Virus record (IMG/VR): IMGVR_UViG_3300045988_120248
Span: 45,063 to 109,062 of that record
Direction: 5' to 3' (one strand)
DNA: 64,000 nucleotides
From: a virus
Both the position numbers and the translations under genes were made by a program. Under the pieces are notes generated by a model that was not told where the DNA came from, did not search any database, and saw only the letters and a program-made list of their open reading frames with translations. Every line of letters starts with the position of its first letter. Within the stretch, counting starts at the first letter, position 1. Below are positions 5,175 to 64,000 of the stretch, in pieces.

Positions 5175-5610
5175 TGAGAAATTTGAAGACTTCTACTCAA
5201 ACGCAGAACGGCGCATCCGAGAACTTAACAAGAAACGCGACGATGCAATGAATGAAACACCACAGAAGATTTACGCGAAAATCGGCGAACTGATTGGGAC
5301 ACTCACTTTAGATGGCGAAGATTATCCAATAAAGGGGCTATCGGATAAAACCGCGCAGCTTCTTCACAGAACGGTTTGCCCAAACTGCGGTGCGCCGCAC
5401 TCACCATGGGAAGCCCAATGCGAGTATTGCGGTGGGTATGTTGATGTGGAAATGAATCAATTTGAGATAAAACCGCAAACTGGAGACTATTCGTTCATAC
5501 GTTGGGACGGGGAAAGGTGGATACAAACACCTGCAAGACTCCTGGACCGTATTTACGCAGAGAGAATATCGGAAGAAGACATCGTTGGATACAAGGAGGA
5601 AAAACAATGA
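5164..5610 (+). CDS. hypothetical zinc-ribbon protein
   Basis: CPNCG ... CEYCG motif. Confidence 0.5.
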   Translation: MDDDEKFEDFYSNAERRIRELNKKRDDAMNETPQKIYAKIGELIGTLTLDGEDYPIKGLSDKTAQLLHRTVCPNCGAPHSPWEAQCEYCGGYVDVEMNQFEIKPQTGDYSFIRWDGERWIQTPARLLDRIYAERISEEDIVGYKEEKQ

Positions 5611-5849
5611 AGAATACAGCAATCGCTTCAGTCGGCAAACTTGTGGATCATAAGTTTGATCGCAGCGTTCCCGCCATTCCATGCAGAATGGAAGCAGGGA
5701 AAGCAGGGACAGACCCGCGTGTTTTTGAACTTCCGCAGGGAGCCATAGACCGAATTAACAACGAAGCATATGCTAATCCGTGTAATGGCATAGGAACGCT
5801 TGACGATGAAACGGCAAAGGCCATTTTGACCGCGTTTGAAACAGCCTAA
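5607..5849 (+). CDS. hypothetical protein
   Basis: ORF 5502..5849 trimmed to ATG 5607 after AAGGAGGA; ATGA overlap with the previous stop. Confidence 0.45.
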   Translation: MKNTAIASVGKLVDHKFDRSVPAIPCRMEAGKAGTDPRVFELPQGAIDRINNEAYANPCNGIGTLDDETAKAILTAFETA

Positions 5850-5994: not shown

Positions 5995-6942
5995 ATGAGC
6001 GAAAATGTCAGCGAACTGGAACAGCAAGAATATTATGCGCAGCTTGCAAAAAAGACCTCGGAAAGTCTTGCATATTTCTACTGCTGCATCAAGTATGATG
6101 TTCCTTTTGCGCGCGACTGCGTACCGCGCGATGAAGGGCGCGACAAGTGGCTTTCGTACCTCGATAACCTCCATATCAAGAAACTGGATGCCAGCAAGAG
6201 CGGCGAGCGTTACGGCTTCCTCGATGGCTTGACCGACATCACGAAGATATTTGGCGAGTGTCTGAAAGACGGAGAGTTTACGAAGGCCGTCTATGCAGAA
6301 AAAAATGCGCAGTCGGCCAAAACTGGCACGGTGAGGCAGCGGAAAGATTGGGGAACCGGAAACGACGAGCATCCATACACCAATGAAGACTATGCAGAAT
6401 TCGACAGAATATACACTGTCCTTGCATCTGACTTGGGAGGTGAAGATGCTCTGAGTGCGAAACAGCAGCTTATCCTTCGCAACGTTTCCAAATGGACGAA
6501 GCAGATGAACGATGCTTCCGATGCTGGAAAATTCGATGCAGCGAGAAAACTGTCAGCCATCATACAGGAAAACTTGGCGAGCGATAACCTCAGAAAGCGC
6601 GATGCCAAACCGGTAGAGGAAATCCGGGTTGACGGCATTACTGAACGGCTCGAAAAAGCTGGCCTGATGAAGAACGGTAAACCGGTAGACCCCGATACCG
6701 CATTTGAACTGCTTTTCCACAGAAGACCAAAGTATTCTTACACAAAAGACGCTGCGGAACAGATGCTTCTCGCAATTATCAACACGTCGCGTATGAATGA
6801 TTCGCTCCCGGAATTCTCAACGCTACCGGATAGCGCAAGAATCAAAGATGATCTCCATGAGTTCGCAGAAGAACCGAATGAAATGGAGAAAACCGCATAT
6901 GAAGGGTTCGGCTATGTGAAGATGCCCCCCGTAAAGGCATGA
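5995..6942 (+). CDS. putative terminase small subunit (positional call)
   Basis: First gene of the late operon, immediately upstream of the large terminase; no motif verified. Confidence 0.35.
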   Translation: MSENVSELEQQEYYAQLAKKTSESLAYFYCCIKYDVPFARDCVPRDEGRDKWLSYLDNLHIKKLDASKSGERYGFLDGLTDITKIFGECLKDGEFTKAVYAEKNAQSAKTGTVRQRKDWGTGNDEHPYTNEDYAEFDRIYTVLASDLGGEDALSAKQQLILRNVSKWTKQMNDASDAGKFDAARKLSAIIQENLASDNLRKRDAKPVEEIRVDGITERLEKAGLMKNGKPVDPDTAFELLFHRRPKYSYTKDAAEQMLLAIINTSRMNDSLPEFSTLPDSARIKDDLHEFAEEPNEMEKTAYEGFGYVKMPPVKA

Positions 6943-6951
6943 CAAAAATTT

Positions 6952-8805
6952 ATGGCAAGACGATATGGTAAGGCTTGGGCACCAGGAGTCGGATGGATAA
7001 GTAAACGCGAGGTTGAACAGCGCGATTACAGTAACTTCGAAAATGATTTTTGGTGTCTTCTGATTTGGGTCGGAAGATTCTTTCCAGATATACTTGCGGA
7101 TGTACTTCGTGCCGACGATGCAGACTACAAGACACTCGAAATTGTACAACGCGTCATGATGCGTGCAAATGCCAGATATCAGGATGTAGCAATCACGGGA
7201 ACCCGTGGACTGAGCAAGACCTACTCAGAAATGCTCGGCGAGGAAATCAACGGTATTGTTTGGCCAGGAACGCGAGTCCTTTATACTGGTCCGGCACTCA
7301 AGCAATTATCTGATATCGGAAGTAAAACACACGCAGACTTGGCAAAAAGCTACCCGTGTATTACAAAACACTGGCGTATTGCGGCAGAAAGCAAGGACGA
7401 TTTCAGAATTACGACAGATTATGGGTCATCATTCTACATAGGAGCAAAACGTGGTGACAACCTTCACGCTGTTATCGCGGAAGAATTTGCGCAGGAAGAA
7501 CAACCTGCGTTTGACTTCAACGAATATACGACAGTTGCGCTTCCAGCTGTTCGATTGGCTCACAACGTAAACGGTGAGAAGGACGAAAACTTCGTCGCAT
7601 ATAAAAACCACTCGATTACCAGCGCAGGAAGAAAGCAGAATCACGCATTCTTGGTTCGCTGCGAAGTTCGCAAGGGAATGCGGAACGGGGACAGCAGTTT
7701 CCAGATGGATGTTCCGTATCAATGCGTAATCCTTCAACAAATGCGCCCCTACTCATGGGCACAAAAACTCAAATCTAAGCTTACCCCAGAACGCTGGATG
7801 CGTGAGATGGAAAGTCGATACACCGGCGCGGATGAATATCCCATTATCTCGGATGAAAGTCTTTCTGAAAGCTGCTGCTTGCAAAGCATGGAACGTCAGC
7901 ATTGCTGCAAATACCCCGGAAACAAAACAGACCCAAAAGACGTGATATACATCGTCTGCTACGACGTTTCCTATGAAGACGCAAAAAAGAACGCAAAATG
8001 CGCTGTTGGCGTTTGGAAGCTTACGAAACAAGATGATTTCCTGAAACGGGACAGATACCTGAAGCAACTGGTGTGGCTGGACGATTGGCCCCCACCGGAT
8101 AACGCTATGAAACAGGCACGAAAACTGAAAGACGTCTGGTATCGGTTTTGCTTTGATGGCGGCAACACCACCTATATTGCAATCGACGGATGGCAGTACG
8201 GCAAGGCGGTCATTGAAGACCTTATGAAAGACCTCGGTGATGGGTTGCCACCGCTGTGTATCTTAGACCATACCGAATATGTGGCTTTGGAACAGGATGG
8301 AGCGTTGCCAATCATTTACCCAATCAAAGCCGGTGGTAGCGGCGTTACAGACCCAGATGTTGAAATGATTCGGTACGCACAGACGCAGTTCGATAACCAC
8401 AACGTACAGCTTCTTACGATGAATACTCGTGAGGGCGTGGAGGCGTACAAGCGGATTCATAAGATCAAGGACGATGATCTGGATTATCAGATTGCACGTC
8501 CATACCAAAAGACCAGAGAACTGTCTGGACAGATTCAAAACCTGAAGGCTGTCCCGTCGGGCGCTGGATTCAGCGAGAAGCGCATTTCCCGCGCAATACA
8601 AAGAGACAGCTGGTCTGCTATAAAGTACGGCTTGCGCCTTGCTCAAAAGCTGGAAAAAGAACTCGTCTTGAGCGAAGTCCGTAAAAAGAGCGACTGGGAC
8701 GCGCTTCTTTCCAAGTATAAGGCAAAAGGGAACGTAAAAAACGTTACCGGAGGAAGCACAGGCGCAAGGCTTGTGACGCAAAGACGCGGAGGAAGGATTT
8801 TTTAA
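6952..8805 (+). CDS. terL: terminase large subunit
   Basis: 617 aa; Walker-A-like GTRGLSKT; position ahead of the portal; typical size and order. Confidence 0.75.
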   Translation: MARRYGKAWAPGVGWISKREVEQRDYSNFENDFWCLLIWVGRFFPDILADVLRADDADYKTLEIVQRVMMRANARYQDVAITGTRGLSKTYSEMLGEEINGIVWPGTRVLYTGPALKQLSDIGSKTHADLAKSYPCITKHWRIAAESKDDFRITTDYGSSFYIGAKRGDNLHAVIAEEFAQEEQPAFDFNEYTTVALPAVRLAHNVNGEKDENFVAYKNHSITSAGRKQNHAFLVRCEVRKGMRNGDSSFQMDVPYQCVILQQMRPYSWAQKLKSKLTPERWMREMESRYTGADEYPIISDESLSESCCLQSMERQHCCKYPGNKTDPKDVIYIVCYDVSYEDAKKNAKCAVGVWKLTKQDDFLKRDRYLKQLVWLDDWPPPDNAMKQARKLKDVWYRFCFDGGNTTYIAIDGWQYGKAVIEDLMKDLGDGLPPLCILDHTEYVALEQDGALPIIYPIKAGGSGVTDPDVEMIRYAQTQFDNHNVQLLTMNTREGVEAYKRIHKIKDDDLDYQIARPYQKTRELSGQIQNLKAVPSGAGFSEKRISRAIQRDSWSAIKYGLRLAQKLEKELVLSEVRKKSDWDALLSKYKAKGNVKNVTGGSTGARLVTQRRGGRIF

Positions 8806-10912: not shown

Positions 10913-11011
10913 GCAATGAAACACTGGGGATAGGGTAGCTCCTGAAAAGCGGTTCCCTTACCGCCTTCCCCTGTTTTTCAATAAGGGAATTACTGAAGGG
11001 AGTAATTGAAC

Positions 11012-27726: not shown

Positions 27727-28857
27727 ATGATTCGTTTTACTGATTCTCGCCTTTACGCAAAAGGCATTGGCGAAGCGATTTGTACCGATAAGACTACCGG
27801 ACAGATCCTTTACTTCTCCAACAAGTTCCAGACCGGTAACGTGACACCGAGCGTCACCATCGGCGAAATCCGCGCCGGCCTCGGAAACGCTATCGCTACT
27901 ACGCTTCCGTCTGACGCTTCTGTCAACGTCGAGTTTACGGCTGCCGACTTCAACCTGTGGGCCAAGGCTGCCCAGATGGGTGCGATGCTCCGTCACAACG
28001 CTCCGGTCATGGTTTGCCAGACCGTTACTGCGAACGGCACGGCGCTTTCCATCGACATCACCGAGGGTACGCCTGTCGCACAGAAGGGCTTCTCCAAGAT
28101 CTTCTGCTACGTGCAGGAAGTCGGCGCTCCGTCTCCCATTGCAACTGGTGGCGTGTCTTATGACCTGAATCCCACTACCGGTGCAGTCACCGGCTTCACT
28201 GCGACGTCCGGCAAGACTTACAAGGTCTTCTACTTTGTCAACAAAGCCACTGCTCAGATCGCGACCATCACCACGGCGATGGACCCGAAGGTCGTTCACT
28301 TCATCGCGACCGTTGCGGTCTTCTCCACTGCTTCCGGCTCCGCGCAGAACGAGGGCACTCGCGTCGGTACGCTGTACATCATCATCCCGTCTCTGAAGTT
28401 CGGTGCGAACGGCGGCGTTACCGGCGATCAGACCAACAACGACACCACGTCTCTGTCCGGTCAGGCAATCGCGTATGACCCGGATGTCATCACTGACGGC
28501 TGTGACGAATGCACCGGCGCAGGCAGCGACCTTGCGTACTACATCTACCAGCCGTGCGGCTCCGGTGTTGAGGAAATCGAGGGTATCGTTGCCAGCATCG
28601 GCGGCATTTCTCTCCCTGCCTCTACCACCTACCAGATGCAGCCGCGTCTCGCCATGAAGAACGGTGAGCTCGTCAAGGGCGATGCTGCGACGTTCACCTA
28701 CACCGCGACTGGCGCTCCGTCCGGTACGACTGTCGGCGAGAAGACCGGCCTGATTACCGCAGGCACGACCGCTGGCGATTTCACCATTGAAGTCAGCTAC
28801 ACGGCGGGTGAATCCACCTTTAAGGACACCTGCGAAGTAGAAGTCACCTCGACCTAA
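27727..28857 (+). CDS. major tail protein with C-terminal Ig-like domain (positional call)
   Basis: 376 aa, high expression-type codon usage, upstream of the tape measure; C-terminal FTYTATGAPSGTTV...TIEVSYT Ig-like segment. Confidence 0.55.
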   Translation: MIRFTDSRLYAKGIGEAICTDKTTGQILYFSNKFQTGNVTPSVTIGEIRAGLGNAIATTLPSDASVNVEFTAADFNLWAKAAQMGAMLRHNAPVMVCQTVTANGTALSIDITEGTPVAQKGFSKIFCYVQEVGAPSPIATGGVSYDLNPTTGAVTGFTATSGKTYKVFYFVNKATAQIATITTAMDPKVVHFIATVAVFSTASGSAQNEGTRVGTLYIIIPSLKFGANGGVTGDQTNNDTTSLSGQAIAYDPDVITDGCDECTGAGSDLAYYIYQPCGSGVEEIEGIVASIGGISLPASTTYQMQPRLAMKNGELVKGDAATFTYTATGAPSGTTVGEKTGLITAGTTAGDFTIEVSYTAGESTFKDTCEVEVTST

Positions 28858-28898
28858 CCACAAACCATATCCCGGAGGGGAAAAATCCCTTCCGGGGA

Positions 28899-28954
28899 AT
28901 GCGCAAACCTATCAATCAAGTGCAAGCGAAATGTTGGTGGGCTTGCGCATTTTT
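28899..28954 (+). terminator. possible attenuating terminator after the major tail gene
   Basis: atgcgcaa / ttgcgcat 8-bp stem enclosing a large loop, followed by TTTT. Confidence 0.3.
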
Positions 28955-28967
28955 AGAGGTGCTTGAC

Positions 28968-29426
28968 ATGAGAGACATTGAAAAAATGCTTGCGAAAATT
29001 TCAAATCTAAACCCGGCAATCGAAAATGCACTCGAACATGAAGTGGCGGATGAAGCGCGTCTCGCTATTAAAGATGCGGCGGAAGAAAGGGTGTACGAAG
29101 CATATAAGCCAAGGTTTTATAGCCGCAGAAAGGAAGACGGAGGCTTAATCGACCCGAACAATATCCTTTGCCAGGTATCCGGCGACACACTCACCATATC
29201 CAACGTTACAGGGCTTCAAAATCTGTGGGGCGGCGATGACGCAAGCTTACTGACACCAATCGTCGAAGACGGAGTTCCGGCCTACAATATGCAGAAAGCT
29301 GGCCCGCGTCCGTTTATGGATTATGCAAAAGAACTTCTGCTTGGCGGCAGAGCCGACGCCGCTCTCCGGCGAGGGCTTGAACGGCAGGGGATTGACACTA
29401 CAGGTCTTACATTCATTTTTGAGTAG
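28968..29426 (+). CDS. hypothetical tail-assembly module protein
   Basis: ORF 28899..29426 trimmed to ATG 28968; the upstream part is the hairpin region. Confidence 0.45.
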   Translation: MRDIEKMLAKISNLNPAIENALEHEVADEARLAIKDAAEERVYEAYKPRFYSRRKEDGGLIDPNNILCQVSGDTLTISNVTGLQNLWGGDDASLLTPIVEDGVPAYNMQKAGPRPFMDYAKELLLGGRADAALRRGLERQGIDTTGLTFIFE

Positions 29427-48087: not shown

Positions 48088-48163
48088 TGGTGGGCCGTCT
48101 CGGAGTCGAACCGAGATTTTACCAGTTATGAGCTGGTCGCTCTAGCCTTTGAGATAACGGCCC
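48088..48163 (-). tRNA. tRNA-Met or Ile2 (anticodon CAT), CCA encoded
   Basis: Acceptor GGGCCGT/ACGGCCC, anticodon arm ACCAG-CTCATAA-CTGGT, T arm CTCGG-TTCGACT-CCGAG. Lacks initiator features; one weak D-stem pair. Confidence 0.85.
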
Positions 48164-48947: not shown

Positions 48948-49024
48948 TGGCAGGGGTAGCAGGATTTGAACCTACGAATATGGGAGTCAAAGTCCCATGC
49001 CTTAGACCGCTTGGCGATACCCCT
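48948..49024 (-). tRNA. tRNA-Gln (anticodon TTG), CCA encoded
   Basis: AGGGGTA/TACCCCT acceptor, TGGGA-CTTTGAC-TCCCA anticodon arm, GTAGG-TTCAAAT-CCTGC T arm; resembles bacterial tRNA-Gln. Confidence 0.9.
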
Positions 49025-49246: not shown

Positions 49247-49420
49247 GAGGTGGCTGCTTCAACCCCATTGACACTTCCCGTGGAAAAACAGGGGATTCTC
49301 GGTTCAGCGACCGTTGCGCCGTAGTTGCGTCTTACATGGTCTCCACGAGCGTATAGGTTCGGGCGTGTCCCGCCCTACCGTATGTTTAGGCTAGGCCAGT
49401 AGGCGCATTCCTTCGTGCAA
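49247..49420 (-). ncRNA. TnpB omega RNA scaffold plus guide, copy 2
   Basis: Same conserved block after the tnpB stop, ending GTCAAT at 49267; the RE hairpin is partly degenerate; guide would be 49247-49266. Confidence 0.5.
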
Positions 49421-50601
49421 AATGTTCTTCGCGGCATTTACATCCCGGTCATGGTGTGTCCCACATTCAGGGCACGTCCATTCCCGTACCGCCAGATTCC
49501 TTGTTCCGGTATTCCGATACCCGCAGCAGGAACATAGCTGGCTGGACGGGAAGAACCGGTCTATCGCTATGACTTTCTTTCCATACCACGCGGCCTTGTA
49601 CTCTAACTGCCGTCTGAACTCGCCCCATGCTGCGTCACTGATGGACTTCGCAAGGTGATGGTTCTTGACCATGTTCCTCGGTGCTAAGTCTTCGATACAG
49701 ATCACATCATTTTCCCGGATGAGCTGCGTTGACAGCTTGTGCATTATGTCCCCACGCTGGTTTGCGATATGCTCATTCAGCCGTGCCACCTGAATCCTTG
49801 CTTTTTCGCGCCGGTTGCTCCCCTTTGATTTTCGGGAGAGCTGCCGTTGCAATCGGGCAAGTTTCTTCTGGTTCTTGGCTAGATAACGTGGATTTGGATA
49901 TTCTATTCCATCGGACGTGATTGCAAACGCTTTCAATCCCATATCAACGCCGATCACAGCGCCGGTCTTCGGCAGCGGCTCAATCTCCACGTCGGTACAG
50001 CAGAGCGATACGAAGTATTTTCCACTAGGATTTTTGGATATCGTGGCAGACAGAATTCGGCCTTTGACTTCTTTTGAAACCCGACATTTGACACGCCCCA
50101 GTTTCGGAAGCTGGACGGCATCTTCAAAAACTTTTATACCGCCTTTTGATTTATAACTCTGTCTATGCTCACGTTTGCTCTTAAATCGCGGAAATCCGGG
50201 TGGCATTCCATTCTTGACGCGGCGAAAAAAATTCTGATATGCGTCATCCAAATCCTTCAGCGATGATTGGAGCGCTGTAGAATCGGCCACTCGAAGCCAC
50301 GGAAGAAACTTTTTTAGTTGCGTCATATCCGCGGAACATTCACAATAGTTCATCATCTTGGAATCTTGTTCATATGCGTTTTGCCTCATTCTGAGATAGT
50401 AATTCCAAATGAACCGACAGCATCCGAATATCTGTTGAATCAGACAGGTTTGGGAATACGAAGGATATATTCGGAATTTATAACTGTACTCCATTATCTC
50501 TCCTTGCATATTTTTTATGATTTCCATGGAAACGTGTGTCACGCTTTCCTGCACCGCATACCCTTGCTGCCTTTTCCATTCGGCCACACATCCGTATGTT
50601 T
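49267..50601 (-). mobile_element. tnpB-only IS200/IS605-type element, copy 2 (rearranged left end)
   Basis: The RE matches copies 1 and 3. The region upstream of tnpB is unrelated to copy 1 LE but has its own bulged hairpin (50528-50549). The left boundary is uncertain. Confidence 0.55.
49391..50494 (-). CDS. tnpB: TnpB RNA-guided endonuclease, copy 2
   Basis: Starts [12 protein letters not shown] after AAGGAGAG. The C-terminal about 200 aa are nearly identical to copy 1 and the N-terminal part is diverged. RuvC and zinc-finger motifs intact. Confidence 0.85.
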
Positions 50602-50877
50602 CTATTCGTTGTTGCTTTTGGGCACTAGGTACATTGCGTAAGAAATGCTTTCGCTGAACCTCACCGGATACTTTTCCATGAGATATACCATGAGTTCGTC
50701 CAAATCCAGCGCGTGTACCGAACCTTCTAGTTCTGGATATTTCCCAATGATGCCGTGCTCCCCAATATCCCAAGGATCGCGCCATCCAATTTCGTAGCAC
50801 TGTTTCAGAATATCTGACAGATCGTATTTATCCAACTCCGCTGCAGCTTGCTTTGCTTCCAAACAATAGTCAAACAC
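50602..50877 (-). CDS. hypothetical protein (91 aa)
   Basis: ORF track; GTG start after GAAAGGGTGG. Confidence 0.45.
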
Positions 50878-52762: not shown

Positions 52763-52836
52763 TGGAGTGCGTGAGGAGAATCGAACTCCCACCATCAGAT
52801 TGGAGGTCTGATGTTCTGCCGTTAAACTACACGCAC
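52763..52836 (-). tRNA. tRNA-Gly(TCC)-like with C at position 33
   Basis: Good cloverleaf (GTGCGTG/CACGCAC, D stem GTTT/GAAC, T arm GGGAG-TTCGATT-CTCCT, U73, CCA). The anticodon loop is CCTCCAA instead of CTTCCAA. Confidence 0.7.
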
Positions 52837-53183: not shown

Positions 53184-54272
53184 TTACGCTATCTCCGGCT
53201 GTGGAACCTGCTTCAACCGGAGGCTTCCGAAAAAATTGTCTCCCGATGCCTCCAACCGGTCGATATTTCTACGCGCCTGACGCTCCTTTTCTTCTTGCAC
53301 GACTTTGGTCATTCGTCTGTTCTTGCGGCTTGTCAGTTTGCCGGAATAGATCTGCGTGGTTGAAACTGATTCATGTCCGAGTTTTGCTTGCAATTCTTCA
53401 TACTTCATACCGCTGTTCAGGTCAAGCCGTGCGCCGACGTGCCGCAGATCGTGAGTACGAATCATGTCGACCCCGGTAACTACTTTCACATGCCGACGAA
53501 CGACGTCTGACAGCCATTGCCGTGTCCCTGCGTGCCATTCTTCTCCCTTGTTGTCACCCTTGAATTTGAACGTCGCTTCTGTCCCAAAAAGTGGGTCACT
53601 GTTACCGGCAGCTGCGGGGCGAATGCCACTGTTTAGATACATGCGAACAGCTGTCTGCGCCAGAATAGGGAAGTCCACTGGACGGAATTTGTCTCCCTTG
53701 CCATGTTCAACGGTCAACTCCGAATTTTCCCAGTCAAGATCGTTCGGCGTAAGCGCCAGGAGCTCGCTGTTCCTGATTTCTGTAGTCAGGAGCAAAATCA
53801 CGATGGAGTAGTTTCTCGGCCAAAATTCAGGGCGCTTGAGATTTGCCGGCGGATTATTTCTCCAGAGCAGTAGGACTTGTTCGTCGGTCAGCAGCTGGTC
53901 GTATGGGCGTTTCTCAAGTTTTCTTGTGTCTGGAATCAGAAGCGGCGCAACCGGATTACTCTCGTACCATCGGCTCTCGCCGAGCTGTTCGGATGATGCG
54001 AATTTGTATAACAGAGAAAGAGCCTTCAAGTATTGCTTAATTGTGTTTGGCTTTTTTCCGTCCCTCCGCAGCTGGTCTCTCCAAGCCTGAATATCGATAA
54101 AACTTTCTTCTCGCCCGTCCCATCTCTTATTGTCCAGCATGAATCCGGAGAAAAGCCGGAATATCTGCTCCGCGTTCTTGACCGTTATCTCAGAACGACC
54201 GATAGCTCGAAGGTTTTCTTCATATGCCACCATCGCAGACTGGAATTTTTCACAGGCATTTGGAAAACCCAT
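53184..54272 (-). CDS. int: tyrosine recombinase / phage integrase
   Basis: C-terminal catalytic signature TEIRNSEL ... HDLRH ... LGHESVSTTQIY. Confidence 0.85.
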   Translation of the reverse strand: MGFPNACEKFQSAMVAYEENLRAIGRSEITVKNAEQIFRLFSGFMLDNKRWDGREESFIDIQAWRDQLRRDGKKPNTIKQYLKALSLLYKFASSEQLGESRWYESNPVAPLLIPDTRKLEKRPYDQLLTDEQVLLLWRNNPPANLKRPEFWPRNYSIVILLLTTEIRNSELLALTPNDLDWENSELTVEHGKGDKFRPVDFPILAQTAVRMYLNSGIRPAAAGNSDPLFGTEATFKFKGDNKGEEWHAGTRQWLSDVVRRHVKVVTGVDMIRTHDLRHVGARLDLNSGMKYEELQAKLGHESVSTTQIYSGKLTSRKNRRMTKVVQEEKERQARRNIDRLEASGDNFFGSLRLKQVPQPEIA

Positions 54273-54336: not shown

Positions 54337-54831
54337 TCAACTTGCTACACCCAAAAACTGCGCGTTGATTCTGTCCAATTCTTCTACGTACTTTGGCGGG
54401 ATATACCCGTTTAGTGCGCGTTCGACGTTTTGCGCTTCCGGCTCTCTCCCACAAATCCGCAAATAGTCTGCAGCAATCTGCCGAAATGCTTTCCGTGCCT
54501 GGTTGAGCGGATCAAGATATTGCTCGAATATAGGCGTATAGCCAACCGGATAGTCCAGCCCAAACAATTCTTTGTATCCCTGCGCGATCAGCGGACAAAA
54601 ATCAACTGCAAATGTCTGCTCATCCATGAGGAAAGAATCCTTCTCACCCGTTACGCGCTCACCGTCCTCGGTGAAGAATTCACCGTGATTCGCGGCATAT
54701 TCATACGCCGCTTTCGAACGCGCCATTGCGTCCTTATACGCCTGTTCTGCTGACTTTAATGCTGCGTAGCGAGCCAAGCCCACTACGCGCAATTCGTCCA
54801 ACTGCTTCTGAATATTTGATGTGATTACCAT
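54337..54831 (-). CDS. hypothetical protein (164 aa)
   Basis: ORF track; RBS AAGGAG. Confidence 0.5.
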   Translation of the reverse strand: MVITSNIQKQLDELRVVGLARYAALKSAEQAYKDAMARSKAAYEYAANHGEFFTEDGERVTGEKDSFLMDEQTFAVDFCPLIAQGYKELFGLDYPVGYTPIFEQYLDPLNQARKAFRQIAADYLRICGREPEAQNVERALNGYIPPKYVEELDRINAQFLGVAS

Positions 54832-54839
54832 ACTTTTCT

Positions 54840-55656
54840 CCTTTGCCTTTGCTACTCAAAGCCGCGCCGGGCGACGCATTTCCATTGCTTTTCATCGCGA
54901 AGCCGTGCATCACCTCGCGGTTCCATGCCGCCGCTCGGCAAAGCCCTACCTAACTACTCCGTAGCTTTCCCTGCTTGGCCTAGCTAACCTGCTCCACTCC
55001 ATTTCTTTGCAACACTAAGCTCTGCCTTGATTTGACATGCCTGTGCGTAGTGATGCAACTCGTATCGCCGCCCAGCCGTCGCAGACCAAATCGATACTAT
55101 GCCTTTGCTGTTCCCACCGCTGCCGTGCCTTGCGAAGCAGCCCAGCGCGAGACTTCACCTTGCCTTTTCATAGTTCTACTTAACTCCGCTCCGCTGTTCC
55201 ATGGCTACCCGTTGCTCAACTAATCCGCTGCTCCGCTTAACTCCGCTCCGCCGTTCCATGGCTATTCACTGCTCAACTGTCCCTTGCCGTCGCTATGATT
55301 ATCAGGTCGATACACTTCCGTTGCTGTGCCATGCGAATCCGTGCAATTCCATCGCCATTTCAACGCAAGACAGCGCTTCGCGTTTCCGTTGCTGCATCTC
55401 GCTACACTTTGCTGCGCTGCACAATTCCGTTGATTCACGTCACTAACCCCCGCATCGCCCTTGCGTTTCTGTGCGCGGAGACTCTTTACTTTGCCATTCC
55501 TTTGCCGTGCTCCTCTGCGCATCGCAACGCCGCTGCTTTACTTTTCAACTCTTTACCGTTCCTTTGCTTTGCTTGGCAAAGCGGGGCCGGGCATTGCCGT
55601 CGCTACGCATTACAGAACCTCGCGATCCTGAACCGTTGCCCCGTTCGGCGGGCCAA
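54840..55656. repeat. 0.8-kb noncoding, strand-skewed, short-repeat-rich region
   Basis: No credible ORF; + strand about two-thirds pyrimidine in the lines counted; about 19 TTGC cores (YTTGCY); CCGTTGCT three times; related about 40-nt segments at both ends. Confidence 0.5.
55179..55292. repeat. tandem duplication, 2 x 57 nt
   Basis: Units start at 55179 and 55236 (cttaactccgctccgc.gttccatggcta......gctcaact...), about 42/57 identical. Confidence 0.6.
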
Positions 55657-56361
55657 TCAGCCCGCCTTTTCCTCCGGGAAGAAGTTTGCTTCCTGCATCA
55701 GACAGCTAAATTTCTCTGCCGTGCCGCCGAGGCTGTTTCCTTCCTCATCGAGCATCTTGTAGACGAAGCGACCCTTTCCAGAATTCCGCCACTGACCGAG
55801 GCCACGCCAGAATCCGTTGTCCAGCCATTCTTTCAGCAGGGCTTCGTGCGCCGAATCTGCGAGTGATACGCCGAACTGGATCGTGCTACCGGCCGGGATT
55901 TCTTCCGAGTTTGCGAGGCTGACACGCTCGCCCTGTGCGGTCTGCGCACGAAGCGGACGCTGACACTCTCCAATTTCGCCATGGACATCAATGCGAATCG
56001 CGCGAGGGAATGGGAAAATCATGCCGTCGATGACCTTCTTATACGCTTTCAGTGTGCTGGACTTCGTGTACTTCGCACGAGCCAGGGCACTGCAGGTGTC
56101 CTTGAAAAATCCCTTGATCTGATAATCATAGAACACGGGCTTACCATCGACACGCGGGAAGATCGTCATGGCCTTGTCGGCGACAGCATCTACGCCGACC
56201 GCTGCGACCTCATCCTCAATCGTGCTTGCGTCCGGGGCCTTGGACGCGATAAAGTCACGCGCAACATTCTCGTTGCTGGGCCACGTACCGAGTACCGGCT
56301 CGATGAACGTGAGCTTGATGTACCGTCTGATTTCCTTGGTTTCCTTGGTTTCCTTTGCCAT
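55657..56361 (-). CDS. hypothetical protein (234 aa) with C-terminal glycine-rich loop
   Basis: ORF 55657..56376 trimmed to ATG 56361 (the first ATG is part of GGAGG). Motif GLGQWRNSGKGRF near the C-terminus. Confidence 0.55.
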   Translation of the reverse strand: MAKETKETKEIRRYIKLTFIEPVLGTWPSNENVARDFIASKAPDASTIEDEVAAVGVDAVADKAMTIFPRVDGKPVFYDYQIKGFFKDTCSALARAKYTKSSTLKAYKKVIDGMIFPFPRAIRIDVHGEIGECQRPLRAQTAQGERVSLANSEEIPAGSTIQFGVSLADSAHEALLKEWLDNGFWRGLGQWRNSGKGRFVYKMLDEEGNSLGGTAEKFSCLMQEANFFPEEKAG

Positions 56362-56413
56362 TGTTTTTACCTCCATAAAATAATTGTTGTTGTGTGATTG
56401 CTTACATTTACTG

Positions 56414-56440: not shown

Positions 56441-56524
56441 GAAAATCTACGCTTTTTGCGGGTATCTTGCGGGAACTTACGGAGATTTTGCGGGTTCAAA
56501 CGCTTGCTCCGCAAGTGTTTTGGA

Positions 56525-58392: not shown

Positions 58393-58752
58393 TCATGCTG
58401 ACATCCGGCGCTCGATTTCGCTTGCGCACTGGAAGACGAACATGACATTTGTGGGTTTACCTCTGTTCGGATCGATTGAGTTTCCGAAGATCTCATACTT
58501 GCGCGGTGTGTTGACACCATCAAATGCCATTTCGACGGCATGGCGCATGCAACGTTCAACCTTGCTGCTCGTTTTGCTGAACCTCTGGGCAATGTCGCAG
58601 TACAAACCGCCGGGTTTCGTTGCACAGGTGCCTTTGTATGCCCCGTCACAGGCGCGCTTGACGGCTTCGGTCAAGTACTTATACCCGTCGAGATTTGCCG
58701 GAATCCCAAGCTCTTTGAAGAGATCGTAGATTGCACATTCTGTTTTAGTCAT
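58393..58752 (-). CDS. Spo0A C-terminal (DNA-binding) domain-like protein
   Basis: ...YCDIAQRFSKTSSKVERCMRHAVEMAF...FGNSIDPNRGKPTNVMFV... matches the Spo0A effector-domain pattern; no receiver domain. Confidence 0.65.
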   Translation of the reverse strand: MTKTECAIYDLFKELGIPANLDGYKYLTEAVKRACDGAYKGTCATKPGGLYCDIAQRFSKTSSKVERCMRHAVEMAFDGVNTPRKYEIFGNSIDPNRGKPTNVMFVFQCASEIERRMSA

Positions 58753-63366: not shown

Positions 63367-63545
63367 TTTCGTGACCTCGCGGAAATGTTGACACTCCCCA
63401 CGTCTAAAGCCGGGGGATTCTCGGTTCAGCGACCGTTGCGCCGTAGTGGCGTCTTACATAGTCTCCACGAGCGTATAGGTTCGGGCGTGTCCCGCCCTAC
63501 CGTATGTTTTGGCTAGGCCAGTAGTCGCAAGCCCTCACTTAGAAG
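63367..63545 (-). ncRNA. TnpB omega RNA scaffold plus guide, copy 3
   Basis: Conserved block after the tnpB stop ending GTCAAC at 63387; guide would be 63367-63386. Confidence 0.55.
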
Positions 63546-64000
63546 GTTTTTCGCGGCGTTGATGTCCCGATCATGGTGTGTCCCGCATTCAGGGCACGTC
63601 CACTCCCGTACCGCCAGATTCCTTGTTCCGGTATTCCGATACCCGCAACAGGAACATAGCTGACTGGATGGGAAGAACCGGTCAATCTGTATGACTTTCT
63701 TCCCGTACCACGCGGCCTTGTACTCCAGCTGCCGCCTGAACTCGCCCCACGAGGCGTCGCTGATAGACTTCGCAAGGCGATGGTTCTTGACCATGTTCTT
63801 CGGTGCTAAGTCTTCGATGCAAATCACATCATTTTCTCGAATGAGCTGCGTTGACAGTTTGTGCATCATGTCGCTGCGCTGGTTTGTGATATTCTCATGC
63901 AGCCGCGCAACCTGAACCCTCGCTTTCTCACGCCGGTTGCTCCCCTTTGATTTTCGGGAGAGCTGCCGTTGCAGTCTGGCAAGTTTCTTCTGGTTCTTGG
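63387..64000 (-). mobile_element. tnpB-only IS200/IS605-type element, copy 3 (runs off the window)
   Basis: RE hairpin tcccc-cggc-ttta-gacg-t-gggga nearly identical to copy 1. Confidence 0.7.
63513..64000 (-). CDS. tnpB: TnpB, C-terminal part (5' end outside the window)
   Basis: The frame stays open to the window edge (...[51 protein letters not shown]...); near-identical to copies 1 and 2. Confidence 0.85.

What the first reader, a model, noticed from the sequence alone, without database searches (positions are those of the whole stretch)
54840..55656. 0.8-kb noncoding, strongly strand-skewed, short-repeat-rich region between two co-oriented genes
There is no credible ORF on either strand. 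The + strand is about two-thirds C+T (my count of 55201-55260: 9 A, 11 G, 40 C+T). The core TTGC (YTTGCY; RGCAAR on the gene strand) occurs about 19 times against roughly 3 expected. CCGTTGCT occurs 3 times, TTGCCGTCGCTA twice and CTAAC-type motifs 6 times. The two ends share a related roughly 40-nt segment (54846-54880 versus 55561-55610). On the gene strand the RNA would be purine-rich with many AYGGAA / GCAAAGG units. Candidate roles are a replication origin or partition site with iterons, or a long protein-titrating or structured RNA. It lies next to int and to an unknown 234-aa protein.
Basis: seen in the sequence. Interest (0 to 1): 0.65.

Follow-up and report, generated by a model that had tools for sequence, protein, structure and literature searches.

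The report
Phage VIPR guide-RNA array beside RAMP gene
The 0.8-kb "non-coding, skewed, repeat-rich" stretch is most likely an array of five-base-repeat guide RNAs (vrRNAs) belonging to a phage VIPR system, and the unknown protein next to it is the Cas7-like Vipr protein that binds them, a CRISPR-like system first described in 2026 preprints, so this is a clear new example and not a new kind of element.

Summary
The short motifs are a by-product of a deeper order. On the gene (-) strand, 54832-55656 parses into 158 units: 135 five-mers and 23 six-mers, 150 of them starting with G (parse score 183.9 against 65.6 +/- 7.7 for shuffles). The units form blocks of 26-41 nt, G-Y-N-N-N repeated 4-7 times and closed by GCAAN-G.

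The periodic zone coincides with the intergenic gap. The region has no ORF, no Rfam match and no excess folding energy.

The upstream "unknown" protein (55657-56376) models as a Cas7-type RAMP. It aligns end to end with the experimentally studied Vipr protein of phage SUSP1, including the G-loop (G-x-G-[D/Q]-W-R...G-R-F).

The gene plus a same-strand periodic zone recurs in all 33 IMG/VR relatives and in 69 of 80 GTDB genome loci, mostly gut Oscillospiraceae and Clostridia. The phase-0 G is 91% conserved between relatives; other phases are 64-73% conserved.

This matches VIPR systems (bioRxiv 10.64898/2026.04.26.720920 and .720927). The repeat fits the "YNNNG/NNNNG" variant those authors mention. 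Blocks are short and have no structured tail. I could not identify targets.

Verdict: a new member of a known, very recent kind. The origin, partition-site and sponge readings are not supported.

The parts
54832..55656 (-). vrRNA array. It holds 158 repeat units (135 five-mers and 23 six-mers), giving about 23 blocks of mostly 26-41 nt (four outside that range: 6, 46, 56 and 71 nt). Each block is (G-Y-N-N-N) x 4-7 closed by GCAAN-G. Block starts on the - strand, in window coordinates: 55654, 55628, 55592, 55551, 55525, 55489, 55453, 55422, 55381, 55350, 55344, 55313, 55277, 55246, 55220, 55194, 55153, 55097, 55066, 55020, 54989, 54918, 54877. The last about 10 nt (54841-54832) are the ribosome-binding site of the next gene.
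   Evidence: Parse; autocorrelation; context profile of 463 GCAANGG sites; phase-specific conservation; no ORF; no Rfam family; no excess structure.
55657..56376 (-). vipr gene, encoding a small single-domain Cas7-like RAMP protein. The ORF as listed is 239 aa. The likely true start is the second ATG at 56358, which gives 233 aa, because GGAGG lies 7 nt upstream of it. G-loop: G192-L-G-Q195-W196-R197-N-S-G-K-G-R-F204. Thumb: about residues 136-160.
   Evidence: AF2 model with pLDDT 74 and pTM 0.71. All top Foldseek PDB hits are Cas7/Csm3/Cmr4/type VII Cas7, E 1e-8 to 1e-5. Profile against PDB hits Csm4 and Cas7 at the G-loop. hhalign to SUSP1 Vipr gives E 7e-4 over 173 columns. BFVD top hit is annotated as a RAMP superfamily protein, 72% identity.
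55647..55666 (-). Perfect 7-bp GC hairpin (GGCGGGC-TGATTG-GCCCGCC) that overlaps the vipr stop codon and marks the 5' edge of the array. Its 3' arm with the following bases (GGCCCGCCGA) is found in 24 of 25 related arrays. Read on the + strand it is followed by a T-run, so it looks like a terminator for antisense transcripts.
   Evidence: Sequence; terminator scan; k-mer GGCCCGCCGA present in 24 of 25 distinct arrays.
54337..54831 (-). Neighbouring 164-aa gene of unknown function whose ribosome-binding site is formed by the last array block. It is not a core part: it is present in only 5 of 33 related loci (one of those matches is cut off by the end of the locus), and elsewhere the array abuts int.
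   Evidence: no Pfam, PHROG, PADLOC or NCBIfam match.
53184..54272 (-). Tyrosine integrase. It gives the context: the VIPR module sits at the lysogeny end of the phage genome, co-oriented with int.
   Evidence: Pfam PF00589 at E 7e-17; PHROG 1 integrase.

Best explanation
The region is the guide-RNA (vrRNA) array of a phage-encoded VIPR (Viral Interference Programmable Repeat) system, and the gene immediately upstream encodes its Vipr protein, a minimal Cas7-like RAMP.

Shown here:
- The RAMP fold of the protein and its distant homology to the validated Vipr of phage SUSP1.
- The pentanucleotide frame of the RNA-sense strand.
- Selection on the frame: the G is conserved, the other positions vary, and indels preserve the frame.
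- Strict gene-plus-array linkage across more than 100 loci from many lineages.

Inferred from the SUSP1 and P. fulva work in the two 2026 preprints:
- The array is transcribed with or after vipr.
- One Vipr protomer binds each 5-nt repeat. It sequesters the conserved G, stacked on the G-loop Trp (W196 here), and the following pyrimidine (R197 here).
- The filament presents the variable bases, which read double-stranded DNA of competing phages through a gapped code and silence it. That would suit a module sitting next to int in a temperate phage.

Specific to this clade:
- Only one G per repeat is fixed (n-G-Y-N-N in place of G-G-Y-N-N). This fits the replacement of both residues that hold the first G in SUSP1 (H17 to T31, D177 to Q195).
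- The array has no structured tails. It is cut into 26-41-nt blocks by GCAAN-G with a +1 frame step. This may correspond to the 'staggered arrays' and the 'YNNNG/NNNNG' repeats that the preprint mentions but does not characterise.
For: - Periodicity: 150 of 158 units start with G; parse score 183.9 against 65.6 +/- 7.7 for shuffles. Autocorrelation peaks at 5, 10 and 15, then 21, 26, 31, 36 and 41. Motif spacing is of the form 5n+1.
- Selection: the phase-0 G is 91% identical between relatives against 64-73% at phases 1-4. 146 of 201 alignment gaps have lengths of 0 or 1 mod 5.
- Protein: all 50 listed Foldseek PDB hits are CRISPR effector-complex chains, those checked being Cas7-family RAMPs, at E 1.5e-8 to 4e-5 and TM 0.37-0.54 by query length, 0.4-0.67 by target length for the single-domain Cas7 chains. 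The profile hits the Csm4/Cas7 G-loop.
- Homology to SUSP1 Vipr: collinear hhalign alignment at E 7e-4 and BLASTP at E 0.008. The identity of the SUSP1 protein was confirmed by matching 13 of the 14 residue numbers quoted in the structural preprint.
- Linkage: all 33 IMG/VR relatives, including those at about 60-63% protein identity, carry the zone right after the gene. 69 of 80 GTDB loci do too, 58 downstream and 11 upstream, always on the gene strand.
- Family consensus: 85 arrays from the GTDB loci pool to G 92% / C 50% / N N N with GCAA(N)-GG punctuation.
- RNA character: no ORF, no fold excess, no Rfam family, and a hairpin plus T-run at the array end in L030 and L031.
- Literature: VIPR definition, alternative repeats NNNGG, YNNNG and NNNNG, staggered arrays and phage location. 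One protomer per repeat, with G2 on the Trp and Y3 in the Arg pocket.
Against: - No expression, processing or binding data exist for this locus.
- Sequence similarity to SUSP1 Vipr is weak: 25% identity and hhalign probability 26%.
- The repeat consensus differs from the characterised GGY/NN. Blocks hold only 5-8 repeats against 9-16, and there is no conserved 3' tail or pseudoknot, so processing and the reading code may differ.
- No natural targets were found. Gapped-code searches of about 1 Mb of related phage and prophage DNA showed no excess over shuffled guides. Four exact-pattern scans of IMG/VR returned nothing.
- The single 16/16 hit puts the skipped base on codon position 1, not on the wobble position.
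- No accessory (vap) gene is conserved next to vipr in this clade.
- I could not confirm from the text held that this clade is among the preprint's seven types.
Confidence: 0.87

Rival explanations
1. The RNA is a scaffold, not a guide. The whole 0.4-1.6-kb transcript is coated by the Cas7-like protein into one long filament, read straight through the GCAAN-G punctuation. The filament itself would be the function, for example sequestering a host factor or acting as a decoy for host type III/I CRISPR complexes. In that case the variable positions are unconstrained and do not carry information.
For: - The blocks are short and have no tails.
- Positions 2-4 of each unit are nearly independent of each other.
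- No targets were found.
- The arrays are very long compared with SUSP1 vrRNAs.
Against: - The homologous SUSP1 and P. fulva systems are programmable DNA binders.
- Some blocks are kept at 98% identity across arrays that otherwise differ by about 25% (query positions 152-202). This implies selection on the variable bases of particular blocks.
- The punctuation motif is conserved family-wide, which suggests discrete units.
Confidence: 0.08
2. The region is a DNA-level element, such as a replication origin, a partition (centromere-like) site or a recombination-protecting motif cluster. It would be made of short polar iterons bound by a phage protein.
For: - Strong strand polarity and many short direct repeats.
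- It lies in an intergenic region next to int.
- AGCGG, recalled from memory as the B. subtilis Chi pentamer, occurs about 7 times by hand count against about 2 expected.
Against: - The conserved information is one G, with or without C, per 5 nt, not a protein-sized site. TRF and standard repeat finders see no iteron family.
- No rep, par or helicase gene is linked to it. The only constant partner across more than 100 loci is an RNA-binding RAMP protein on the same strand.
- Length varies fourfold between near-identical phages.
- Cumulative GC skew shows no origin-like switch at the site.
Confidence: 0.02
3. The region is a protein-titrating sponge RNA for a host RNA-binding protein, for example a CsrB/RsmZ-like sponge for CsrA built from A-N-GGA motifs.
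For: - A-N-GGA occurs 16 times against 8.1 in shuffles.
- Several GGA motifs can be drawn in the loops of 3-4-bp hairpins, by inspection.
Against: - GGA itself is not enriched: 26 observed against 28.7 expected.
- The conserved feature is the 5-nt frame, not GGA.
- There is no excess folding energy (z-score 0.24).
- The partner gene is a RAMP, not a CsrA-related gene.
Confidence: 0.02
4. The region is a decayed gene or a neutral expanded microsatellite, (GCAAA)n drifting apart, with no function.
For: - GCAAA is the commonest unit.
- Long stop-free frames exist in some relatives on the pyrimidine-rich strand.
Against: - The periodicity is 5 nt, not 3 nt.
- The stop-free frames occur in several frames at once and give low-complexity products, which is a composition effect.
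- Drift would erode all five positions equally. Instead G is 91-97% kept while the others are near random.
- The feature persists in lineages whose Vipr proteins are only 42-72% identical.
Confidence: 0.01

Closest known systems
VIPR systems, type II (Escherichia phage SUSP1 and a Pseudomonas fulva prophage), described in bioRxiv 10.64898/2026.04.26.720920 and 10.64898/2026.04.26.720927
   Same: - A phage-borne small single-RRM RAMP protein with a thumb and a G-loop carrying G-x-G-x-W-R...G-R-F.
- An adjacent same-strand intergenic RNA built of tandem pentanucleotide repeats, with a fixed G followed by a pyrimidine and then variable bases.
- No cas genes and no CRISPR array.
- The Trp and Arg that hold G2 and Y3 are conserved.
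   Different: - The repeat is n-G-Y-N-N (G 92%, C 50%) and not G-G-Y-N-N. Both G1-contacting residues are replaced (H17 to T31, D177 to Q195).
- There are about 23 abutting blocks of 5-8 repeats, not 3-4 separate roughly 100-nt vrRNAs of 9-16 repeats.
- There is no structured 3' tail or pseudoknot. Blocks are closed by GCAAN-G with a +1 frame step.
- Arrays reach 1.65 kb.
- No conserved vap gene is present.
- The protein has about 40 extra residues.
- The hosts are gut Clostridia and not Proteobacteria.
Other VIPR architectures mentioned but not detailed in the preprint: 'staggered arrays with overlapping vrRNAs' and the alternative repeats 'NNNGG, YNNNG, NNNNG'
   Same: - Read in the Y-first register, the repeat here is exactly YNNNG or NNNNG.
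- Consecutive blocks abut without spacers and are offset by one nucleotide, which resembles the description '1 nt overlapping positions'.
   Different: I could not verify the correspondence, because the figures and data tables that define those types are not held as text. Those architectures are not among the ones the preprint reports confirming by sRNA-seq.
Class 1 CRISPR backbone proteins (Csm3/Cmr4 of type III, Cas7 of types VII and IV) bound to crRNA
   Same: - The same fold is the best structural match: E 1e-8 to 1e-5 and TM 0.5-0.65.
- One protomer binds per fixed-length RNA segment, and a thumb interrupts the guide periodically.
   Different: - The register is 6 nt in CRISPR and 5 nt here.
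- crRNA spacers have no internal sequence periodicity.
- CRISPR needs repeats of 23-50 nt, Cas6 or Cas5 handles, and adaptation genes. None of these is present here.
TRAP (trp RNA-binding attenuation protein) binding sites. This comparison rests on my own knowledge and was not tested here.
   Same: It is an RNA with a short conserved element every 5-6 nt that wraps a protein oligomer, one subunit per repeat.
   Different: - TRAP reads (G/U)AG triplets, 9-11 per site, in a leader RNA.
- The protein fold is unrelated to RAMPs.
- It is not phage-borne and has no variable guide positions.

Membership tests
VIPR system (Vipr + vrRNA) | The Vipr protein is a small RAMP with a single RRM core, a thumb and a glycine-rich loop, encoded outside any cas operon. 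| tested here: met
   - The AF2 model gives only Cas7-family top hits in the PDB.
- The G-loop is hit by a Csm4/Cas7 profile match.
- Family-invariant residues cluster in the thumb (Q139-R151) and the G-loop (G194-R203).
- No Cas protein family was detected among the neighbours scanned.
VIPR system (Vipr + vrRNA) | Homology to an experimentally validated Vipr (SUSP1). | tested here: met
   - hhalign gives E 7e-4, 173 collinear columns and 25% identity. BLASTP gives E 0.008. The match is weak but runs end to end and includes the beta1, YD-Q, KVID and G-loop motifs.
- The SUSP1 protein's identity was verified against the published residue numbers.
VIPR system (Vipr + vrRNA) | An intergenic region next to vipr, on the gene strand, made of tandem pentanucleotide repeats with conserved G(G)Y and hypervariable N positions. 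| tested here: met
   - Shown: - The consensus is the variant n-G-Y-N-N, written YNNNG or NNNNG in the preprint's notation.
- The linkage holds in 33 of 33 viral loci and 69 of 80 genome loci.
VIPR system (Vipr + vrRNA) | Carried mainly by phages and prophages. | tested here: met
   - The window has phage-like organisation: a long + strand gene block that includes a 1678-aa ORF (not scanned for function), then a - strand module with integrase and anti-repressor.
- All relatives are IMG/VR viral contigs.
VIPR type II architecture (SUSP1-like) | Each vrRNA has 9-16 repeats followed by a conserved structured 3' tail (hairpin or pseudoknot). | tested here: not met
   - Blocks hold 5-8 repeats and have no tail between them.
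- There is no excess structure.
- SUSP1 shows roughly 45-nt tails in the same analysis.
- The locus is therefore not type II. The preprint allows other architectures.
VIPR system (Vipr + vrRNA) | An associated vap accessory gene. | tested here: inconclusive
   No neighbour family is shared by more than 14 of the 80 GTDB loci. The window's p196, p97 and p164 are clade-specific.
VIPR system (Vipr + vrRNA) | The vrRNAs are expressed, processed and co-purify with Vipr as a helical filament. | not testable with these tools
   This needs small-RNA sequencing, a pull-down or cryo-EM.
VIPR system (Vipr + vrRNA) | The variable bases match DNA of competing mobile elements through a gapped (1-nt-skip) code. 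| tested here: inconclusive
   - There was no excess over shuffled guides in about 1 Mb of local phage and prophage DNA for 12 reading rules.
- Four exact IMG/VR scans found nothing.
- One 16/16 hit is not wobble-aligned.
- The database and the exact-match limits make this a weak test.
CRISPR array | Near-identical direct repeats of 23-50 nt separated by unique spacers, usually with cas1/cas2 nearby. | tested here: not met
   The best direct-repeat families are 29-43 nt long at only 60-76% identity with irregular spacing. TRF finds nothing in the region. No Cas1 or Cas2 family was detected among the eight neighbouring proteins scanned.
CsrB/RsmZ-type CsrA sponge RNA | Many GGA motifs, enriched and displayed in hairpin loops. 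| tested here: not met
   GGA occurs 26 times against 28.7 expected. The MFE z-score is 0.24. There is no Rfam hit.
Iteron-type origin or partition site | Repeated protein-binding sites of about 15-22 bp, linked to a rep or par gene. | tested here: not met
   The unit of conservation is 5 nt with one fixed base. No rep or par gene is linked, and the constant partner is a RAMP.

The most novel reading that the evidence does not exclude
This very large gut-Clostridia clade of VIPR (more than 7,600 protein clusters) may use a reading code and an RNA biogenesis different from the characterised type II systems.
- Only one anchoring G per pentamer is kept, because the G1 pocket has been lost (H17 to T31, D177 to Q195). 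Three bases per repeat may therefore be free to read the target, possibly giving a triplet or codon-sized code.
- Dozens of tail-less mini-guides of 5-8 repeats would be delimited only by GCAAN-G and a +1 frame step.
- This would imply a new processing or assembly signal and very short, combinatorial target recognition from arrays up to 1.6 kb long.
Probability: 0.3. Interest if true: 0.7.

Novelty: new member of a known kind. Interest (0 to 1): 0.45.

Why it matters
VIPR is a newly reported RNA-guided DNA-recognition system, proposed to be older than CRISPR. This locus shows three things about it.

- A huge, unannotated protein family of human- and animal-gut phages belongs to it. The family has more than 7,600 clusters and no Pfam, PHROG, NCBIfam or PADLOC model.
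- These phages devote up to 1.6 kb next to their integrase to guide arrays.
- Standard tools (ORF callers, Rfam, TRF, CRISPR finders) miss the arrays completely, while a simple 5-nt G-phase statistic finds them with almost no false positives.

The clade also offers a natural variant for working out how the code depends on the protein. Its repeat has a single fixed G, and the two residues that hold the second G in SUSP1 are replaced. It may also reveal how tail-less arrays are cut into guides.

For the temperate phage in this window, the practical inference is that the module is a weapon or shield against competing phages in the same gut host.

Tried and rejected
- Coding or pseudogene, including recoded stop codons. 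I translated all six frames of the window and of the relatives. Rejected: stops of every kind occur, stop-free frames are only on the pyrimidine strand and in several frames at once, and the periodicity is 5 nt, not 3 nt.
- Known RNA families. I ran Rfam at gathering threshold on the whole window and at E <= 10 on the region. Nothing relevant came up; only three tRNAs and an int-alpA motif elsewhere.
- Large structured RNA (GOLLD/ROOL-like). The MFE z-scores are about 0 on both strands. Rejected.
- CsrA sponge. This was my first idea from the A-N-GGA motifs. Rejected because GGA is not enriched over composition.
- Similarity to GenBank phages at the DNA level: no match. At the protein level there are four unannotated human-faecal phage records.
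- Defence and annotation libraries (Pfam, PHROGs, PADLOC, NCBIfam) find nothing for p239, p164 and p196.
- Target prediction.
  - I ran local gapped searches with 12 reading rules, first on 120 blocks and then on 400-476 blocks of at least 7 units, against about 1 Mb of DNA (2 Mb counting both strands) with shuffled controls. There was no significant excess. The best was the 1-nt-skip rule, with 77 guides at 1 mismatch or fewer against 66-67 in controls.
  - One perfect 16/16 match links an L001 guide to L085:5731, inside a 275-aa ORF. The skipped bases fall on codon position 1, so I treat it as chance.
  - Four exact IUPAC scans of IMG/VR, under contiguous-triplet, triplet-plus-skip and dinucleotide-plus-skip rules, gave zero hits.
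- Codon-like signatures in the variable positions: no clear stop-codon avoidance or dinucleotide bias.
- Conserved accessory gene: ORF clustering around vipr in 114 loci found none shared across lineages.
- Assigning the locus to one of the preprint's seven types: not possible, because the figures and data tables are not held as text.
Full report
**1. The observation**

The region 54832-55656 lies between two - strand genes: a 164-aa ORF (54337-54831) and a 239-aa ORF (55657-56376).
- 19 TTGC.
- 3 CCGTTGCT.
- 2 TTGCCGTCGCTA.
- 6 CTAAC-type motifs.
- 9 A, 11 G and 40 C+T in 55201-55260.

C+T is 63.5% on the + strand. On the gene strand GCAA occurs 19 times against 4.8 +/- 2.1 in shuffles, and GCAAAG occurs 9 times against 0.5. 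All six frames are interrupted by stops; the three - strand frames carry 9-16, and all three stop codons occur among them.

**2. What the repeats really are**

I aligned the contexts of 463 GCAANGG sites from the window and its relatives. G sits at -15, -10, -5, 0, 5|6, 11, 16 and 21 in 85-91% of sites. Motif-to-motif distances are 26, 31, 36, 41... = 5n+1.

G autocorrelation peaks at lags 5, 10 and 15, and then at 21, 26, 31, 36 and 41.

A dynamic-programming parse of the - strand divides the whole 825 nt into 158 units: 135 five-mers and 23 six-mers. 150 of them start with G. The score is 183.9 against 65.6 +/- 7.7 (maximum 89.5) for 300 dinucleotide-preserving shuffles. The periodic signal switches on and off at the edges of the intergenic region.

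The units group into about 23 blocks. Each block has a moderately conserved first unit, 3-5 units of G-Y-N-N-N, a closing GCAAN, and one extra G that shifts the frame by +1.

The "related 40-nt ends" are two similar blocks.

Tandem Repeats Finder reports nothing here. The ordinary repeat finder sees only 60-76% identical families with irregular spacing.

**3. It is not coding, not a known RNA family and not a folded RNA**

- Rfam gives no match at gathering threshold or at E <= 10.
- The MFE z-scores are 0.24 on the - strand and 0.34 on the + strand.
- In relatives, stop-free frames of up to 317 codons occur. They are on the pyrimidine-rich strand, occur in two or three frames at once, and give low-complexity products. 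I read this as a composition effect.

**4. The neighbouring protein**

p239 has no Pfam, PHROG, PADLOC or NCBIfam match. It has more than 7,600 homologues in metagenomic protein space, and none of the 120 best listed carries an informative name or a Pfam domain.

Its C-terminus, G-L-G-Q-W-R-N-S-G-K-G-R-F, looked to me like a RAMP glycine-rich loop. The following results support that:
- A profile search of the PDB hit Csm4 and a type VII Cas7 at exactly this loop, at E 1.5e-3 and 3e-3.
- An AlphaFold2 model has pLDDT 74 and pTM 0.71. The low-confidence parts are a helical insertion at 32-68 and a beta-hairpin tip at 141-154.
- Foldseek on that model returned only CRISPR effector-complex chains among the listed PDB hits; those I could identify are Cas7-family proteins: type VII Cas7, Csm3, Cmr4, Cas7-11 and type IV Csf2. 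E-values run from 1.5e-8 to about 4e-5 and TM 0.37-0.54 by query length, 0.4-0.67 by target length for the single-domain Cas7 chains.
- In the viral structure library, the top hit (72% identity) is a gut-virome protein that its depositors already called "Cas system-associated RAMP superfamily protein". Weaker hits include proteins of archaeal viruses.
- Family-invariant residues cluster in the hairpin (Q139-R151) and in the G-loop (G194-R203).

**5. Gene and array travel together**

All 33 IMG/VR loci that encode a p239 relative carry a purine-rich region immediately after the gene, including loci at only about 60-63% protein identity.
- In the 29 loci where the next gene could be mapped, base composition is nearly constant (A 0.28-0.35, C 0.18-0.21, G 0.32-0.37, T 0.12-0.17).
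- In those loci the length ranges from 413 to 1655 nt.
- The region is 5-nt periodic and non-coding, and there are almost no other periodic zones in the 12-kb loci.
- p164 is present in only five of these loci (one match cut off by the end of the locus). Elsewhere the array abuts the integrase gene.

In 80 loci from GTDB species genomes, protein identity to p239 is 42-72%. They are mostly Oscillospiraceae, Faecalibacterium, Ruminococcaceae and other Clostridia MAGs from guts, with some Coriobacteriia, Planctomycetota and Chloroflexota.
- 69 of them have a same-strand periodic zone of at least 200 nt abutting the gene: 58 downstream and 11 upstream.
- 85 arrays from these loci pool to G 92% / C 50% / N / N / N, with the same GCAA(N)-GGC/GGA punctuation.
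- No other neighbouring gene family is shared by more than 14 of the 80 loci.

**6. Selection acts on the frame**

- In an alignment of 14 arrays, the phase-0 G is 91% identical to the window, against 64-73% at phases 1-4. The second G of each six-mer is 96% identical.
- 146 of 201 gap runs have lengths of 0 or 1 mod 5. That is, whole repeats, or whole blocks containing one six-mer, are gained and lost. These counts are not phylogenetically independent.
- Some blocks are 98% identical across arrays that are otherwise about 75% identical.

**7. Comparison with what is known**

A literature search found two 2026 preprints that describe VIPR (Viral Interference Programmable Repeat) systems. As the preprints describe them:
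- VIPR systems are phage-encoded, minimal, single-RRM RAMP proteins (Vipr, about 20 kDa) flanked by intergenic vrRNAs.
- The vrRNAs are made of tandem pentanucleotide repeats (GGY/NN, written YNNGG).
- One protomer binds each repeat and forms a helical filament.
- The thumb and G-loop sequester G1, G2 and Y3, and the NN bases read double-stranded DNA with one target base skipped per repeat.
- Natural targets are competing phages and satellites.
- Seven types are reported, with alternative repeats "NNNGG, YNNNG, NNNNG", "staggered arrays" whose vrRNAs abut with a 1-nt overlap, ribozyme-interspersed arrays, and variable accessory (vap) genes.

I located the reference locus in phage SUSP1 (KT454805): vipr at 28474-29061 and vap at 28031-28471, both on the - strand, with GGTNN runs followed by roughly 45-nt tails in both flanking intergenic regions. 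The protein's identity is confirmed because 13 of the 14 residue numbers quoted in the structural preprint fall on the stated residues.

p239 aligns with this protein collinearly over 173 columns at 25% identity. hhalign gives E 7e-4 and BLASTP gives E 0.008. The aligned parts include the first strand, the Y-D-x-Q and K-V-I-D motifs, and the G-loop: GVGDWRPRFGRF in SUSP1 against GLGQWRNSGKGRF here.

**8. How this clade differs, with one structural rationale**

Put in the preprint's register, the repeat here is n-G-Y-N-N. G2 is 92-97% G. Y3 is 50-53% C and about 64-68% pyrimidine. The position that corresponds to G1 is G in only about 20% of units.

In SUSP1:
- G2 stacks on W178.
- Y3 sits against R179.
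- G1 is read by H17 and D177.

In p239, W196 and R197 are kept and invariant. The two G1 contacts are T31 and Q195, which are also invariant. The protein change and the RNA change therefore agree. This is an inference from an alignment at 25% identity, not a structure.

The other differences from SUSP1 are:
- 5-8 repeats per block, against 9-16.
- No structured tail.
- Blocks delimited by GCAAN-G with a +1 frame step.
- Arrays of 20-45 blocks.
- No constant vap gene.

The locus fails the type II architecture but fits the family definition. It may be the "staggered / YNNNG" kind. I could not verify this because the figures are not held as text.

**9. Mechanism proposed for the window**

- The vipr gene has a likely true start at 56358, with GGAGG 7 nt upstream. 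It and the array are co-oriented with int at the lysogeny end of a temperate phage of a gut Clostridia host.
- A conserved perfect 7-bp GC hairpin overlaps the vipr stop codon at the array's 5' edge.
- In more distant loci the array ends with a hairpin plus T-run.
- The inferred sequence of events is as follows. The array is transcribed from the vipr promoter or as read-through. Vipr protomers load one per pentamer on the G-Y anchor. The RNA is cut or partitioned at GCAAN|G. The resulting filaments bind DNA of competing phages through the exposed variable bases and silence them.
- The steps after "one protomer per pentamer" are extrapolated from SUSP1 and P. fulva.

**10. Targets**

- I tested 12 reading rules on 120 blocks, and five rules plus three skip lengths on 400-476 blocks of at least 7 units. 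The database was all fetched loci plus the window with arrays masked (about 1 Mb, 2 Mb counting both strands), and controls were shuffled guides. No rule gave a significant excess. The 1-nt-skip rule was nominally best, with 77 guides at 1 mismatch or fewer against 66-67 in controls.
- One 16/16 match links an L001 block to L085:5731, inside a 275-aa ORF of another VIPR-bearing element. The skipped bases lie on codon position 1, not on the wobble position, so I regard it as probable chance.
- Four exact-pattern scans of IMG/VR found nothing.
- The database is small and the collection scans allow no mismatches. This leaves the targeting step untested; it does not refute it.

**11. Rivals**

- A pure scaffold or decoy filament is the only serious rival. 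It is disfavoured by block-specific conservation and by the conserved punctuation.
- Origin or partition iterons, a CsrA-type sponge, a CRISPR array, and a decayed gene or microsatellite each fail a defining feature that was tested here (see the membership table).

**12. Verdict**

The finding is real and biologically meaningful. Its kind was described in 2026, so I rate it a new member of a known kind. It has residual novelty in the single-G repeat, the tail-less punctuated array, and the size of the gut-phage clade. Confidence that this is a Vipr/vrRNA module is 0.87. Confidence in DNA targeting of competing phages by a gapped code is lower, roughly 0.6, because it rests on homology alone.

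Noticed in passing
window 56456-56495 (about 80-120 nt upstream of the vipr start, - strand): An 11-nt unit TTGCGGGTATC is repeated 3.7 times (TRF). On the gene strand it reads as three CCCGCAA boxes spaced 24 and 11 nt start to start. It sits in the AT-richer gap before vipr and could be an operator or promoter-control site for the module.
   Followed up: no
window 55647-55666: A perfect 7-bp GC hairpin overlaps the vipr stop codon. Its sequence is conserved in 24 of 25 related arrays. Read on the + strand it is followed by TTTTCC, so it looks like a terminator for antisense transcription. Its role could be a processing signal, an mRNA 3' stabiliser or an antisense terminator; this is unknown.
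   Followed up: partly
window 49391-50800 (-) and 63513-63869 (-): The 469-aa ORF has a TnpB-like (IS200/IS605-family) sequence, judged by eye. A second copy of its C-terminal 118 aa, nearly identical, lies near the window end. This suggests two copies of one insertion element in the phage genome, and their omega-RNA regions were not examined.
   Followed up: no
window 10923-10987 (+): Rfam reports an int-alpA RNA motif (RF02996, 52 bits against a gathering score of 35.8). It lies between two + strand ORFs in the long + strand gene block, far from the integrase.
   Followed up: no
window 48088-48163, 48948-49024 and 52763-52836 (all on the - strand): Three tRNA genes (Met-CAT, Gln-TTG, Gly-TCC) lie in the - strand module. 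tRNA-Gly lies about 350 nt downstream of int with its 5' end facing int, so it looks phage-borne and not like an attachment-site tRNA. The attachment site was not located.
   Followed up: no
window 58393-58752 (-): A 119-aa protein consists only of a Spo0A C-terminal DNA-binding domain (PF08769, E 3e-24). In loci L026-L028 its homologue sits directly upstream of vipr. It may be a phage regulator that mimics the host sporulation master regulator.
   Followed up: no
L001:6753-6793 (guide block) and L085:5731-5753 (target): Under the published 1-nt-skip rule, all 16 variable bases of one array block from a related phage match a 275-aa ORF. That ORF lies about 700 nt beyond the array of a different VIPR-bearing element, in an Anaerotignum MAG. 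The skipped bases fall on codon position 1. This is probably chance but worth rechecking with a mismatch-tolerant search.
   Followed up: partly
window 56331-56355 (the N-terminal coding part of vipr): The 9-nt unit TTTCCTTGG is repeated 2.8 times. It encodes the K-E-T-K-E-T-K-E stretch at the N-terminus of p239. Many homologues start after it (matches begin at residue 8 or 20), so it is a clade-specific N-terminal extension.
   Followed up: no
L060:3626-3925, 5201-5825 and 6476-7025; also L084, L098 and L101: Some genome loci carry periodic zones on both sides of vipr, or additional zones 0.6-2.5 kb downstream. This resembles the upstream-plus-downstream vrRNA layout of SUSP1.
   Followed up: no
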